In this document: positions 5,001-37,700 of the stretch, one piece after another
Numbering within the stretch: the stretch's first letter is position 1
Layout of the letters: the number at the start of each line of letters is the position of its first letter
Made by a program: the position numbers
Assembly: GCF_037042905.1 (NCBI RefSeq)
Contig: NC_087249.1
Span: 30,690,001-30,754,000 of the forward strand
Origin: Lytechinus pictus
Taxonomy: Eukaryota
Length of the DNA: 64,000 nt
Direction of reading: 5' to 3'

Positions 5001-8000
5001 ATATTCTATTTTTGCAGGTCTTTTAAGGTATATATAGAGATACGACATAATGCACTGAACTATATTGCAGGCAACAAAGATGGGAGTAATTGAGAAATAA
5101 TAATTTAATTTTGTAGTCTACCAATAACTTTAATTATCTGATGGGCGAGGGGAATATAAAACCAAGGTGGTAATAGTAAATGAACCAATATTGTAAATAA
5201 TGGATAAAGGCATATTGGCAATTACGTAATAATTAATGGAAATGACTGTTTGCTTTTGTGTTTAGATTTAACGTCTTCGCTGAAATGGGGAATTTTTAAA
5301 AACAGTAAAACGTTGGCATTCATACAGTAATGTTTTATAAAATCAGTCAAAAGGGGGGTGAATATGGTAAAGATTTTTGCATTATTCTGGTTGAAAAATA
5401 AGAATGATGAAGAGCTATTAAGTTGCCATTCTGTAATACTCAAATTAGCAATCATATGCATCCATTTTTTATCGACAATAAATGTAAGAAAATCGTCTTT
5501 TCTTGGTTATTGATAAAGATTCAGCGCATAATGGCAGATCCAAGGGGAATGATATCTAAGGAAAGAACAAAGCGCCCCCTCCTGGATTTAATTTCTCTTC
5601 TCAACCAATATTTAAATGCATTTTTCTTTCAACCTTTACGAAAAATACATAAGCTCGATGCAAAATCCATTAATCTCAATAAAAAGTTCGATCCCCATTT
5701 TCGGCCCAGAAACTCGCGACTCTTGCGAAATTTACGTAATTAGCATAATTAGCATAATTCACCATTTTAGAAACTTAAAGGAATCATTGATTATACGGTA
5801 CCCTTTGTGGGTTCTTTTTAGTGCTCAGTTACCTGAGTACAGACTATTTGACAAATAAATTTTCGTCACACTGATCGGGAAATGTTTTTTTTTACCCAAA
5901 AGTACCCAAAATATTCAGCCATCGCCACAATATGGCAAAAATAGCCCCTAAGAATAAAAATGTATTCCTTTCCTGGATCAAGTAAATACATGCATGTAGA
6001 TTTGTAAATGAATTATGACAGCATAATTAAAAAAAATCATGGCATAGATAAGAAAAATTTTAAGAGGAGGCTGCTGATTAGCTAAAAGTCTGATTATCAA
6101 AACATTCTCATTTTCTGCCATTTGGTGCAAGCCTTATTTTTAACCCCTGACAAAAAATGTTCGTGTTCGCTCAAGCACAAACGACACTTGTTGTTCTAAA
6201 AGCATTTAAAGATAAGATTTAAGAGCATCTATTAACATAAAAAATAGACATCATAATTTCAAACAAAATTTTGATAGACTTTTCTGTCTGTCCTGTTTTT
6301 ATTGATACGCACTGTATAATGGAATTAATGAATAATAATTTCTCTATAGATAGAATTCTTAGTCAGATACCATGTATTATTCATCTTATTTCTATCTCAC
6401 TTCCTCTTTCTTTGTTCATTTCTTGTTTTTGTCTGTCTGTTTCTCTCACTCTGTCATGTCTCTGTCTTCTTCCTTACCTTCAAATTCCTCTTTCTTTTCC
6501 CTGATTTCCTTCATAATCATCTTCTCTTTTCCTACGTTACCCACACCCTCTGTCACACACACACACCTTATCTCTCTCTCTCTACCTCCCTCCCCCTCTC
6601 ATAACCACCCACACCCCACACACTCACGATTCACCGCTCTGTCACTTTCATTTCTCTCCATCTCTCTTTTTCTTTCCCTCTTTCAACATCTAACCCAGAT
6701 CCCAAACATCTTGGGTAATATAGGTGGGCTGAAAGGGCCTCTTCACCGGCATGTCATTCATCAGTTTGTTTGAAGTCGCCTTTCTACTGCTACGAGTCAC
6801 AAAAATCACTTTCACCAAACTCTTCATGGCCAACCGAGTGAAGTCGATTGCGACCTGATAGTACGATCTAAGATGGATGGTTGTACAATATCATTATCAA
6901 ATATATTCATCAACTCGTATTATATATGTAGCATAGCAAAATTTCATATAAAACCTTATTCATTACATTACATAGCTATATATATATACATATTTCCGTA
7001 AATTTTGTTTTAAATAGTGCATTGAAAAGCGAAAGTTGTTGGTTTTATTTGGTGAAGCTTTGAGTCAAACAGTAATATCCTATTGTTATTTGTCATAATT
7101 CTTTATAAAAAGGCCTATTTGTATATTTTCTTTGAATTGAATTTAAGTACCATGGAGATAAAACAGAATTGATAAAAATGCTATATAAATCAAGCTATTA
7201 TTATTATATTTTTTATAAACTCCTATTGCACTAAGTATGACTCTGTGATTTATTTTTTAAGTGTTAATAACTAAACATTTCAAATGATTTCCGATGTCTG
7301 CGTAGGATGGTTTTATTTACAATTTTCATATTGAAAAATCAAATAAATATCATTAAAAAAATTACTCAGGCATACTCTCACGAAGTGTACAGTTTGCAAA
7401 ATATAATTTTTCTATTGATATCAGTCATAATTTGCTAAAGGAGCGAAGCGTTAAGTTTCTGGAGAAAATACATAAGAAAGAAATTCTTTATGTTCTTTGA
7501 TTATTAAATAGTCTGATCGTCGTTACGGAAGTGAACACGATGACCTAAGCCTAGTAAGAAGTTGTATTTTTTTGTCTGTCACTGCTTTGGTGGAAAATGG
7601 TCTCCGGGTTTCTGTCGAAAGAAAATGAGAAAATGATAGAAAAGAAAGTTATAAAAAAAATTGAAAATTGAGAATTTTATTCTTTAGAGATAATATTCAT
7701 TGATGATTTTTTTTCCGAATGGAGTGTTATCAATTTCTTAGAGCTGAAATAATTTTGAAAAATCCCAAATTGATTGCTAAAAATCTTTTCATCTACTTTA
7801 TCAAAAATATCATGGATCATTCATCTGCATAAAAGTTCGAATGACAGATTAAATAATGTAACCAGGTGATTAAGGTAAAATAAAAAGTAATGAAGCTACA
7901 TAGACTTCACAATTATTGTTTTTTTTTATCAGATTAGTAAAAAAAAACATCTATTCAAGGTGAATATGAAATGAAATTGCAATTTGTTCAACATTTTGCA

Positions 8001-34700: not shown

Positions 34701-37700
34701 AAGCTCGATGCAAAATCAATTAATCTCAATAAAAAGTTGGATCCCCATTTTCGGTCCAGAAACTCGCGACTCTTGCGAAATTTACGTAATGAGCATAATT
34801 AGCATAATTCTCCATTTTAGAAACTCAAAGGACTCAATGATTATACGGTACCCTTTATAGGTTCTTTTTATTGCCCAGTTACCTGAGTACAGACTATTTG
34901 GCAAATAAATTTTCGGCACACTTATCGGGAAAAGTGTTTTGTTTTATTGTCAATTAGCTGTTTAGTTTTAAGACAACCTCCACTTTAATTGATAGCCTTT
35001 AGCAACTTTGTTATGTCATTATCGAAACTAATACATTTATTGTTCATAAAGATACACATGTGGTTTTCTTCTGCAGAAGTTAATAACCAGTAGCCTTTTA
35101 TATTGCTCCAATACTCTCAAATTTCGTACGTCATGTCCATGTCTCTTGTGTTATTCCATATCCTCCTCTCTCCCTCTCTCTCAATCCCTCCCCCACTCTC
35201 TCTCTCTCTCTCTCTGTCTGTTCTCTCTTAACTATAAAATCATAAGAAGGTCGATATCATTGCGGACCAATTTAACTATCAGACATAAATAGATGGAAAT
35301 CTGACAAATCTCTGCCTCGCAACTATCTACCTATCTATCTATATATCTATGTATCTTTTCAACTATCAATCAATTTTTTATTGATCGATTGATGTAAGTT
35401 CCTCATCTCTTTCTTTATCTCCCTCAGTTTCTCAGCAACACTGTTTTCTATCTATCTTCATCTTCTCGTCATCATCCTCCTCACTGATTATAATGGGCTA
35501 ATGCCATGCTATTCATATAAAAGACGAGGGGTGATGGTACTAAGTAAAAGTGCATACGAAGAACATTAATAGTAATTGTATTCAAGCCAATATAATCCCC
35601 ATAATTGCTAATACCTCGGTCACATTTGCTCTACGGCGGCCGTAAGGCGAGTCGAAAACAGCCGTTTATTCATTTTTATTCAAACCACCTATATTTAGCT
35701 GGTACAAAAAATGTTAAAACGACTGTTTTCGACTCGCCGTACGGCCGCCGTAGAACAAATGTGACCGAGGTATAACTGATTGATTACTGATTGATTGTAT
35801 ATCAAACAAAAAGCAGCGTTCAGTTTTGAAAAAAACTGACAAGGTGTAAATGCTTAAGAATGAACGTCTGAAGTGAATACATGAAGAAAAAAATAATCAA
35901 GATATTATCGGCATATTTAAAATGAAGGCCCTTTGTGCATTTCGTAATTTTTGTAACTGTGAAATATTCATATGGCTGTGTTTTGCAAACCAGTGAGCTT
36001 GTATTTCATACTGAATCCAACTTTTCCGTTCGCGATTAATATCTTGCATACAATGAAACAAAATGTATTACTCATTAAATGTGTAGAATCTTTATAATTT
36101 TAATCATATAGATAGAAATAACAGAAAGATGATCTATACCGTGTTTAAAGAATTATGTGTAAATACGTTACAAAAATAGGTAGGATTACAATACATATCC
36201 ACGGACAGATCCAGGAGTTTTAAATGGAGGGGTGGGGTATGTATCTCCCGAAAAAATTGACACCCCCCCCCCCTCCCCGAAAAAAGCTTTTTACTTTCGA
36301 CTTGCGTATGCGCGACATTTTCCATTACAATCATTTTGTATGGCTTTCAAAAGGGGGATCCGGCTACACTCTGGTCAAGAAAAAGGATTCATAATTTACC
36401 AAACTAGAATTTACATTTACGCCGACTGTCGATTGTGATCGACGATGATTTAGGAGGTTGGGCTGTGTGACAGGCGCTCGTATACATGTAGAGGCAGGCC
36501 TATATGGTTTGAAGGAATGCGACACAGCGCGCGTTAGATGCTGCGGAAATAACTCGCTCTTTCTAAAATGAGGATAGTCGCTTCTCAATTTGAGCGTTTA
36601 ACACCGGTCGTGCCAGTGCAACGTGGGGTTTATCAAAATCAATAACTTGGTTTGTTGCTGTATTTTAGCTTTATGGATGATAATTCAGCATGTCCCAAGG
36701 AAACTTTAAGTAACTTGAATCTGGAACTTTAATTGAAACGTTCCTCTATGTGCCGACGGAGCTGAATACGCTTGGATAGTTTCGGATATTCCGAATCAGT
36801 AGTAGATGTAGACATATCATCTGCTACTCTATAAGATAATCGATATAAATTTTAAAAATATAAAATCTTACTAAAACGCCAAGAGCAACATGAGTTCCGA
36901 CAAATTCGATGATGACACTGTAGGTGAGGCGGTGTGCGACTTCGGCAAAGACACCACCGTTCACGGAGTCAGGTACATGATCGCCCGAGGTCATTTTCTC
37001 TTCCGTCTGTGCTGGCTCGCCATCGTCATCCTCGCTTTCGTTCTCTTTGGTATGCAAGCTACCAACGTTTATAGCGATTACGCTGCTTCCCCGTATTCGA
37101 CCAAGATAGACATCGTCCAGACGACCTTCAAGGCCTTCCCTGCCGTGACGGTTTGCAATGTGAATAGGATTCGGAGATCGAGGCTCTACGATACGAACTA
37201 CGAGGGGCTGATTGACGTCGATGATATGTTTATCTCTGGATATTTAGAAGACGAGGAATCGGTCAATATGACAGAGAGAGTAAAGTAATTAAACCTTCTC
37301 AAAACATTAAGAGTATAAAGTTGGTAAACCATTCATTCATTATTATTTTCACATTTCATAATAAATTATTTTAATTTGAACAAATACATCATGTGCATGA
37401 CATATGCAGATTTTAACACGCACCAATAAAATGGAGAAAAAAAAGTAGAGGGTTCTAATAAAAAGAAAAGATTAAAAAATGTGGGCCCCAATCGATATTT
37501 ATAATAATAATAACAATACTAATAATGATGATAATAATAATAATTAAATATATATATATATACGCACACACATATATTAGGTAGAAATAACACAAGAGCT
37601 GGATTCCCAACAACCCCTCCGAATCATGTTCGCTTCTGTTTATCGACATGCCCCTATACAGTCTCAGAAAAATAATGTTACTACAATTTAGTTTTCTTTT

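What the first reader, a model, noticed from the sequence alone, without database searches (positions are those of the whole stretch)
5886..34935. PGRP amplification unit carries a captured ion-channel terminal exon
Each complete unit begins with the TM2/pore exon of a DEG/ENaC gene (6699-6858 frameshifted, 25564-25722 intact), tail-to-tail with the PGRP 3' end. This exon differs from that of channel gene 1 (GNIGG vs GNWGG; different C-terminus). Inference: a third channel gene lies left of the window, the PGRP array sits inside a DEG/ENaC cluster, and the duplication breakpoint fell in that gene's last intron. The intact copy keeps its acceptor and could serve as an alternative last exon or an antisense partner of the PGRP 3' UTR.
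[Added by the scan's program, not by the reader: the finding's places include an assembly gap (unread letters, written N; its length is only estimated) at 19770 to 19983, 29207 to 29393, 29412 to 29555. Whether the letters on both sides are continuous or in frame is not known: test that first.]
Basis: partly seen in the sequence, partly recalled or inferred. Interest (0 to 1): 0.65.

Follow-up and report, generated by a model that had tools for sequence, protein, structure and literature searches.

The report
Channel end-exon copied with urchin PGRP genes
In a sea-urchin genome, a roughly 10-kb block holding an immune gene (PGRP) was copied head to tail and took along the last exon of the neighbouring ion-channel gene; the stray exon copies look like passive by-products, so this is an ordinary partial-gene duplication.

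Summary
25564-25722 (+) is an intact 52-codon DEG/ENaC TM2/C-terminal exon with an AG acceptor. 6699-6858 is the same exon with one extra base. Each copy lies tail to tail with a 7-exon PGRP gene on the minus strand.

The window is Lytechinus pictus-like. The exon is 50/52 identical to the C-terminus of a full-length L. variegatus channel (P0001, 507 aa). Channel gene 1's own last exon shows the same level of identity to its L. variegatus orthologue.

No other exon of that channel lies in 1-36880. The unit junction is about 805 bp upstream of the exon and occurs twice. The array's right end is at about 34931-34946.

- The array does not start at 5886. It runs off the left end of the window: 1-89 plus 2541-5894 are unit sequence carrying exon 1 of a third PGRP.
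- The exon copies diverge like their flanks (2.5% vs 3.4%, p=0.81), whereas the PGRP exons are conserved.
- All N runs lie in PGRP intron 4, at a (TAC)n microsatellite.
- The intact copy sits on a gap-bounded contig exactly one unit long, so a misplaced haplotype is not excluded.

Verdict: an ordinary co-duplicated partial gene. The parent gene left of the window is plausible but unseen, and there is no evidence that the copies function.

The parts
1..89 (.). Unit sequence (intron 1 of a third PGRP, PGRP-0). It shows that the array runs off the left end of the window.
   Evidence: Aligns at 93-98% to 21296-21370 and 30833-30921, directly abutting the point where homology resumes at 2541.
90..2541 (.). 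TIR transposon insertion in PGRP-0 intron 1, with an internal tandem-repeat block at 1073-2181. It is not part of the unit.
   Evidence: 75-nt terminal inverted repeats at 90-164 and 2467-2541, 99% complementary. An 8-9-bp target-site duplication, with empty sites in the other two units. Tandem repeats.
2541..5894 (.). X1, the PGRP upstream segment of the leftmost (partial) unit. It carries PGRP-0 exon 1 at 3582-3472 (-).
   Evidence: Self-alignment to 21362-24731 and 30913-34946. Exon 1 matches P0004 residues 1-43.
5895..6698 (+). Intron-like flank of about 805 bp between the unit junction and the channel exon (copy a). Its CT-rich tract ends in an AG acceptor.
   Evidence: 96.1% substitution identity to 24732-25563. 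Junction alignment.
6699..6858 (+). DEG/ENaC TM2/C-terminal exon, copy a. It is frameshifted by one extra base within 6732-6734.
   Evidence: tblastn to P0001 in two frames: 12/13 and 38/40 identical.
7579..22404 (-). PGRP-a, 7 coding exons: 22404-22288, 21208-21167, ~20789-20622, ~20228-20091, 19453-19364, ~18490-18386, and 7611-7582 followed by a TGA stop. It spans the gap at 19770-19983 (intron 4) and a 9.7-kb insertion (last intron).
   Evidence: Exon-by-exon tblastn with L. variegatus P0004. Splice dinucleotides and frames.
8409..18150 (.). Insertion of about 9.7 kb with Tc1/mariner-like ends in the last intron of PGRP-a. It is absent from unit 3.
   Evidence: 354-bp inverted ends at 8407-8760 and 17799-18152. 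TA flanks and an empty site at about 27620. 0 of 7 of its ORFs tested gave a Pfam match.
19770..19983 (.). Assembly gap in PGRP-a intron 4.
   Evidence: Flanked by a (TAC)n microsatellite.
21362..24731 (.). X2, the PGRP-a upstream segment. The unit junction is at 24731/24732.
25564..25722 (+). DEG/ENaC TM2/C-terminal exon, copy b. It is intact: 52 codons plus a stop, with the AG acceptor kept.
   Evidence: Pfam ASC at 28.0 bits against a cut-off of 23.6. 96% identity over 52 aa to P0001. Alignment.
25759..26120 (.). Indel of about 355 bp, present only in unit 3 and starting about 40 bp after the exon's stop. It contains the nearest plus-strand AATAAA (25766).
26786..31949 (-). PGRP-b, 7 coding exons: 31949-31839, 30733-30692, 30312-30145, ~29810-29673, 28921-28832, ~27966-27862, and 26818-26789 followed by a TGA stop. 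Intron 4 holds the gaps at 29207-29393 and 29412-29555.
30913..34946 (.). X3, the PGRP-b upstream segment. The array ends at about 34931-34946 in a T-run, and unique sequence follows.
36890..51639 (+). DEG/ENaC channel gene 1, about 10 coding exons. Its own TM2 exon is at 51481-51639, after a 6.3-kb last intron.
   Evidence: tblastn with L. variegatus P0003 (73-96% per exon for the exon-sized matches; two longer matches spanning 44546-45244 run into intron and score 34% and 59%) and L. pictus P0016 (77-100% per exon; 5 of 8 matches at 98-100%). Pfam ASC at 75.2 bits for exon 1.
55068..64000 (+). DEG/ENaC channel gene 2. It runs off the right end of the window, so its last exons are not in the window.
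   Evidence: L. pictus P0010 residues 1-461 match at 87-100% per exon. Pfam ASC at 75.8 bits.

Best explanation
A block of about 10 kb was duplicated head to tail at the DNA level. The likely route is an initial tandem duplication followed by unequal crossing-over and gene conversion.

The block holds a complete, apparently intact 7-exon PGRP gene, its 3-kb upstream region, and 1.5-1.9 kb beyond its 3' end. A DEG/ENaC gene is transcribed convergently towards the PGRP, and its last exon ends only 0.7-1.1 kb from the PGRP stop codon. The left breakpoint fell about 805 bp upstream of that exon, in what would be the channel gene's last intron. Each new unit therefore carries a copy of the channel's TM2/C-terminal exon.

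The two copies in the window are passengers, that is, partial-gene duplicates. They have no upstream exons to splice from nearby. They drift at the rate of their flanks, and one has already acquired a frameshift.

Shown here: the exon's identity, the unit structure and junctions, the PGRP gene models, and the lack of excess conservation. Inferred: the parent gene to the left of the window, the mechanism of duplication, and the absence of function.
For: - The exon belongs to the family: Pfam ASC above its cut-off, and 50/52 identical to the C-terminus of the full-length L. variegatus channel P0001. In that search, 3 of 22 candidates passed, all of them L. variegatus channels.
- That 96% equals the identity of channel gene 1's last exon to its L. 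variegatus orthologue P0003. The relationship is therefore orthologue-like, not paralogue-like.
- The same novel junction occurs twice (5894/5895 and 24731/24732), while the third copy of the left-hand segment continues into unique sequence at about 34931-34946. This is the signature of tandem duplication.
- The exon keeps its acceptor and 805 bp of shared non-coding flank.
- Homology to gene 1's last exon stops at the exon borders.
- No other channel exon lies in 1-36880 under a permissive tblastn. The best chance-level hit had E=0.46.
- Exon divergence between the copies is 4/159, against 51/1509 in the flanks (Fisher p=0.81). The PGRP exons are strongly conserved relative to their introns: 1/252 vs 89/2127 (p=7e-4) and 12/354 vs 73/661 (p=1.4e-5).
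- The three upstream segments are mosaics. Blocks of 97-99% identity alternate between different pairs, as expected for exchange among real tandem paralogues.
Against: - The parent gene is not in the window and could not be inspected.
- No L. pictus-named protein with this C-terminus surfaced.
- 3 of the 4 substitutions between the exon copies are synonymous, a weak hint of past constraint (from the alignment; by my own arithmetic p is about 0.06, so not significant).
- Exon b is fully intact with a good acceptor, so use as an exon cannot be excluded.
- With only 159 sites, the conservation test has little power.
- The contig carrying exon b (19984-29206) is bounded by gaps on both sides and is exactly one unit long. 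Its copy number rests on scaffolding.
Confidence: 0.78

Rival explanations
1. Part of the duplication is an assembly artefact. Under this reading the gap-bounded contig 19984-29206 is an uncollapsed alternative haplotype of the unit to its left, scaffolded in tandem. Exon a (frameshifted) and exon b (intact) would then be alleles of one copy. This would not remove the finding. Contiguous sequence 1-19769 alone already shows a channel exon lying between the 5' exon of one PGRP and the 3' exons of another.
For: - The contig between the gaps is 9,223 bases, one unit period. Both of its ends fall at the same microsatellite as the neighbouring contig ends.
- Substitution divergence between 5895-19740 and 24732-29203 is only 2.5-4.6%. 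From recall, not from a call, that is near the allelic diversity reported for sea urchins.
- Both transposon insertions are present in one copy and absent from the other.
Against: - The upstream segment on the same contig (X2) is no closer to X1 than to X3: 92.7% vs 94.1% overall.
- The three copies form a mosaic in which each pair is closest somewhere.
- A microsatellite that short reads cannot cross would break every true unit at the same place.
Confidence: 0.2
2. The intact copy is functional. It could act as an alternative last exon of the upstream channel gene through read-through transcription across one or more PGRP genes. Or it could act as a convergent 3' partner whose transcript overlaps the PGRP 3' UTR.
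For: - Intact frame, AG acceptor and polypyrimidine tract.
- AATAAA 44 nt after the stop at 25766.
- Only 2 of 52 residues differ from L. variegatus P0001.
- Minus-strand AATAAA signals for the PGRP and plus-strand signals for the exon interleave in the 0.7-1.1-kb spacer.
Against: - No excess conservation over the flanks.
- The sister copy is frameshifted.
- The nearest possible donor exon is more than 25.5 kb upstream, beyond at least two antisense PGRP genes.
- The AATAAA at 25766 lies in a 355-bp indel absent from copy a.
- No transcript data were available.
Confidence: 0.05
3. Each unit once held a whole channel gene, and all exons but the last were later deleted. Alternatively, the exon was moved in by a transposon or by retroposition.
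For: Two transposon insertions lie elsewhere in the units, so the region is active.
Against: - Both units share the same junction and the same 805-bp flank. A deletion would have to predate the duplication, which comes to the same model.
- No remnants of other exons.
- Only short, AT-rich, 74-94% inverted matches flank the exon, with no TIR or TSD.
- The intron-like flank and acceptor argue against a processed copy.
Confidence: 0.04

Closest known systems
Partial-gene duplicates created by tandem segmental duplication (a neighbouring gene's terminal exon carried along with an amplified gene)
   Same: - Head-to-tail units with a repeated novel junction.
- The breakpoint lies inside a neighbouring gene's intron.
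- The copied exon keeps its intron flank and acceptor.
- The copies decay: one is frameshifted and divergence is flank-like.
   Different: Nothing in kind. The specific pairing of PGRP with a DEG/ENaC terminal exon in Lytechinus did not turn up in print. The searches were made, which gave 22, 6 and 0 papers. I saw listings only and none is about this locus.
L. variegatus 'amiloride-sensitive sodium channel subunit beta-like' (P0001, 507 aa), DEG/ENaC family, Pfam ASC PF00858
   Same: The last 52 residues are 96% identical to exon b. The exon border falls at the same residue as in channel gene 1.
   Different: Only the final exon is present here. The N-terminal TM1/HG region and the extracellular domain are absent from 1-36880.
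L. variegatus PGRP 'SC2-like' (P0004, 228 aa), Amidase_2 PF01510
   Same: All 7 coding exons are found in both window copies at 72-100% identity, with the same C-terminal 10-residue exon.
   Different: The window copies are L. pictus-like paralogues. PGRP-a carries a 9.7-kb insertion in its last intron. PGRP-b has a perfect 229-nt palindrome 35 bp upstream of its ATG.

Membership tests
DEG/ENaC (Pfam ASC, PF00858) terminal exon | Match to the C-terminal (TM2) end of the family profile above the curated cut-off. | tested here: met
   Exon b scores 28.0 bits against a cut-off of 23.6, at profile positions 429-454 of 455. Gene 1's exon scores 26.7 bits.
DEG/ENaC (Pfam ASC, PF00858) terminal exon | Pore-lining TM2 motif, G-x-S followed by a conserved Glu. 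The motif definition is recalled, not taken from a call. | tested here: met
   The pattern was found at 25600-25638 and 6736-6774 (the latter in a shifted frame), and in gene 1 at 51517-51555. These are the only 3 hits in six frames.
DEG/ENaC complete gene | N-terminal HG/TM1 exon and extracellular-domain exons upstream of the TM2 exon. | tested here: not met
   A permissive tblastn of P0001-P0003 against 1-6698, 6859-25563 and 25723-36880 gave a best E of 0.46 and no colinear hits. The copies are isolated exons, not genes.
Orthologue of L. variegatus P0001's last exon | Identity at the between-species level rather than the paralogue level. | tested here: met
   96% to P0001, against 84% to P0002, 75% to P0003 and 60% to L. 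pictus P0010. Gene 1's exon against its orthologue P0003 is also 96%.
Tandem segmental duplication | A recurrent novel junction, plus one copy that continues into unique flank. | tested here: met
   Junctions at 5894/5895 and 24731/24732. The third copy diverges at about 34931-34946.
Tandem segmental duplication | The parent gene sits next to the leftmost unit. | not testable with these tools
   It lies outside the window.
Tandem segmental duplication | Copy number confirmed independently of scaffolding. | not testable with these tools
   The contig 19984-29206 is bounded by N runs on both sides. No reads were available.
Transposon-mediated or retroposed exon capture | TIRs/TSD flanking the captured piece, or loss of the intron flank with a poly(A) tail. 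| tested here: not met
   Only short, AT-rich, imperfect inverted matches. The acceptor and 805 bp of shared flank are kept.
PGRP (Amidase_2, PF01510) | Match to the family and a complete set of coding exons. | tested here: met
   Single exons are too short for the Pfam cut-off. The exon 4 ORF scores 21.4 bits against a cut-off of 26, and the exon 3 and exon 6 ORFs gave no hit. However, all 7 exons of P0004, which carries PF01510, are found with canonical splice sites in both copies. No joined model was scored.

The most novel reading that the evidence does not exclude
The convergent pair (channel last exon plus PGRP 3' end) is a regulatory module that is co-amplified on purpose. Under this reading, read-through transcripts of the upstream DEG/ENaC gene splice into successive exon copies. 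This would give alternative pore/C-terminal variants and run antisense across the PGRP genes, coupling channel expression to PGRP dosage.
Probability: 0.04. Interest if true: 0.5.

Novelty: new member of a known kind. Interest (0 to 1): 0.2.

Why it matters
Mostly for annotation.
- Two orphan DEG/ENaC exon copies in a PGRP array can seed false or chimeric gene models.
- The array shows that PGRP copy number in Lytechinus is being changed by recent tandem duplication, with gene conversion among the units.
- The locus gives a dated example of how a breakpoint in a neighbour's intron creates partial-gene duplicates.

It opens no long-standing question. A specialist would not be surprised.

Tried and rejected
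- Listing the members of the P0001-P0003 clusters, to see whether an L. pictus orthologue with this C-terminus exists. 
- Searching with full-length P0001 for an L. pictus orthologue. 22 proteins passed E<=1e-60 among 6887 candidates. The L. pictus entries P0010 and P0016 proved to be channel genes 2 and 1, and P0020 and P0023 were only 42-43% identical. None is P0001-like.
- Looking for further channel exons in the units. None was found.
- Looking for homology between the exon's flanks and the flanks of gene 1's last exon. None was found beyond the exon.
- Looking for TIRs around the exon. None was found.
- Rfam scan of the whole window: 0 matches at gathering thresholds.
- Pfam on 10 further ORFs from the insertions and introns: 0 of 10 matched.
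- Literature searches found nothing on this locus. One search term was rejected for its slash and I re-phrased it.

I considered and rejected the idea that the gaps hide a PGRP exon. All 228 residues of P0004 are placed outside the gaps.
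Full report
**Source of the window.** The window is sea-urchin DNA. L. pictus-named proteins match it almost perfectly. P0010 matches channel gene 2 at 87-100% per exon (five of seven exons at 97.5-100%). 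P0016 matches channel gene 1 at 77-100% per exon (five of eight matches at 98-100%). L. variegatus proteins match at about 73-96% per exon. I take the window for Lytechinus pictus or something very close to it. Nothing in it was taken for human. Gene models were handled exon by exon. I made and searched no joined (spliced) sequence, so no whole-protein score exists for the PGRP or channel models of this window.

**Gaps first.** The three N runs are 19770-19983, 29207-29393 and 29412-29555. All lie in intron 4 of the two PGRP genes, at the same position of the repeat unit. They open in a (TAC)n/(CAT)n microsatellite.
- On the minus strand, exon 5 lies on one side of each gap and exon 4 on the other, in the expected order and orientation.
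- Every residue of the 228-aa reference PGRP P0004 is placed outside the gaps.
- No frame crosses a gap, and the channel exons are 3.5 kb or more from any gap.
- Continuity itself cannot be tested, because both units are broken at the same place.
- One consequence matters. The piece 19984-29206, which carries the intact exon, is bounded by gaps on both sides and is exactly one unit long.

**The observation.** Exon b (25564-25722, +) has an AG acceptor, 52 codons and a TGA stop.
- It matches the last 26 positions of Pfam ASC above the curated cut-off: 28.0 against 23.6 bits.
- Exon a (6699-6858) differs from b by 4 substitutions and one extra base within 6732-6734. This shifts the frame after 11 codons.
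- The only other TM2 motif in six frames is channel gene 1's last exon at 51481-51639. It is 75% identical in protein, with GNWGG for GNIGG and a different tail. Its DNA aligns only within the exon.

**What the exon is.** In the protein collection, 3 of 22 candidates passed, all of them L. variegatus channels listed on one 48.68-Mb contig.
- P0001 (507 aa) is 96% identical over all 52 residues. P0002 is 84% identical and P0003 is 75%.
- P0003 is the orthologue of channel gene 1, and its last exon is likewise 96% identical to the window's.
- The captured exon therefore relates to P0001 as orthologue to orthologue. A complete gene with this end exists in the sister species.
- In the window, no other P0001-like exon exists between 1 and 36880. 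The best hit had E=0.46 and nothing was colinear.

**The unit.** Self-alignment and boundary alignments give this layout:
- Partial unit: 1-89 plus 2541-5894.
- Unit 2: 5895-24731.
- Unit 3: 24732 to about 34946.
- Then unique sequence, leading to channel gene 1 at 36890.

The junction between units occurs twice, at 5894/5895 and 24731/24732. The third copy diverges in a T-run at about 34931-34946. The stretch 90-2541 is a TIR transposon with an 8-9-bp target duplication. Homology to the other units resumes exactly across it.

Each unit reads, left to right:
- about 805 bp of CT-rich intron-like sequence;
- the channel exon (+);
- a spacer of 0.7-1.1 kb;
- a 7-exon PGRP gene on the minus strand;
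- about 3 kb of PGRP upstream sequence.

**The PGRP genes.** Exon-by-exon tblastn with P0004 finds all seven coding exons in PGRP-a (22404 to 7579) and PGRP-b (31949 to 26786). It also finds exon 1 of a third gene, PGRP-0, at 3582-3472. Splice dinucleotides are canonical where I checked them, and both genes end in the same 10-residue last exon followed by TGA. The PGRP stop is 720 bp (a) or 1063 bp (b) from the channel exon's stop. The difference is a 355-bp indel. PGRP-a's last intron holds a 9.7-kb element with Tc1/mariner-like ends.

**Is the exon constrained?** Between units, the exon shows 4 mismatches in 159 aligned sites. Its flanks show 51 in 1509 (Fisher p=0.81). As an internal control, PGRP exons 5-7 show 1/252 against 89/2127 in their introns (p=7e-4). 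PGRP exons 2-4 show 12/354 against 73/661 (p=1.4e-5). The PGRP exons are visibly protected and the channel exon is not, although 159 sites give little power. Three of the four substitutions are synonymous (read off), which is a non-significant hint.

**Real array or artefact?** The three upstream segments are 92.7-94.1% identical overall. They are mosaic: X2-X3 reach 98.7% in one 400-bp block, X1-X3 reach 98.7% in the next, and X1-X2 are closest near the junction. This pattern fits exchange among real paralogues. The segments from the junction to the gap are closer to each other, at 95.4-97.5%. Given that closeness and the gap-bounded one-unit contig, I keep about a 20% chance that this contig is a misplaced haplotype. 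Even then, contiguous sequence 1-19769 shows a channel exon lying between the 5' exon of one PGRP and the 3' exons of another. The co-duplication stands.

**Mechanism.** This is a tandem duplication whose left breakpoint lies in the last intron of a convergent DEG/ENaC neighbour, and whose right breakpoint lies in the PGRP-channel 1 intergenic region. Unequal exchange followed. The exon copies are passengers. A functional role as an alternative last exon or an antisense partner is not excluded, but nothing here supports it.

**What stayed unchecked.**
- Transcript data.
- Paper supplements, which were closed.
- For the three literature searches I saw listings only and read no paper.

Noticed in passing
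window 31984-32547: A perfect 229-nt inverted repeat (arms 31984-32212 and 32319-32547, 100% complementary, 106 nt apart). It is present only in unit 3, as part of a roughly 600-bp insertion 35 bp upstream of the PGRP-b start codon. It is either a very recent foldback insertion in the promoter/5' UTR or an assembly palindrome.
   Followed up: partly
window 8409-18150: A 9.7-kb element with 354-bp inverted ends, Tc1/mariner-like termini and TA flanks, in the last intron of PGRP-a. It has internal duplications (8811-9090 ~ 16160-16446 and 15332-16164 ~ 16902-17736). None of the 7 ORFs tested gave a Pfam match.
   Followed up: partly
window 90-2541: A non-autonomous TIR element (75-nt ends, 99% complementary, 8-9-bp target duplication) filled with a degenerate tandem repeat at 1073-2181. 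It is inserted in intron 1 of the leftmost PGRP.
   Followed up: partly
window 45077-51639: The public L. pictus model of channel gene 1 (P0016, 377 aa) reads through the donor of the penultimate exon and lacks the TM2 exon. In the window that exon lies 6.3 kb downstream at 51481. The intron between them holds a LINE-like endonuclease fragment (49044-49643; Exo_endo_phos at 21.2 bits, below the cut-off) and a 400-bp tandem duplication (50396-51191). This is probably an annotation truncation.
   Followed up: partly
window 35611-35773: A MITE-like hairpin (67-nt arms, 91% complementary) in the unique sequence between the array and channel gene 1.
   Followed up: no
window 30145-30312 vs 20622-20789: PGRP-b exon 3 has HHTYMPE where PGRP-a has HHTDTPE and L. 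variegatus P0004 has HHTDMPE. The L. pictus protein P0006 shares the Y and a nearby L with PGRP-b. The paralogues are diverging in the amidase domain, with 10 of 168 nt differing in this exon.
   Followed up: no
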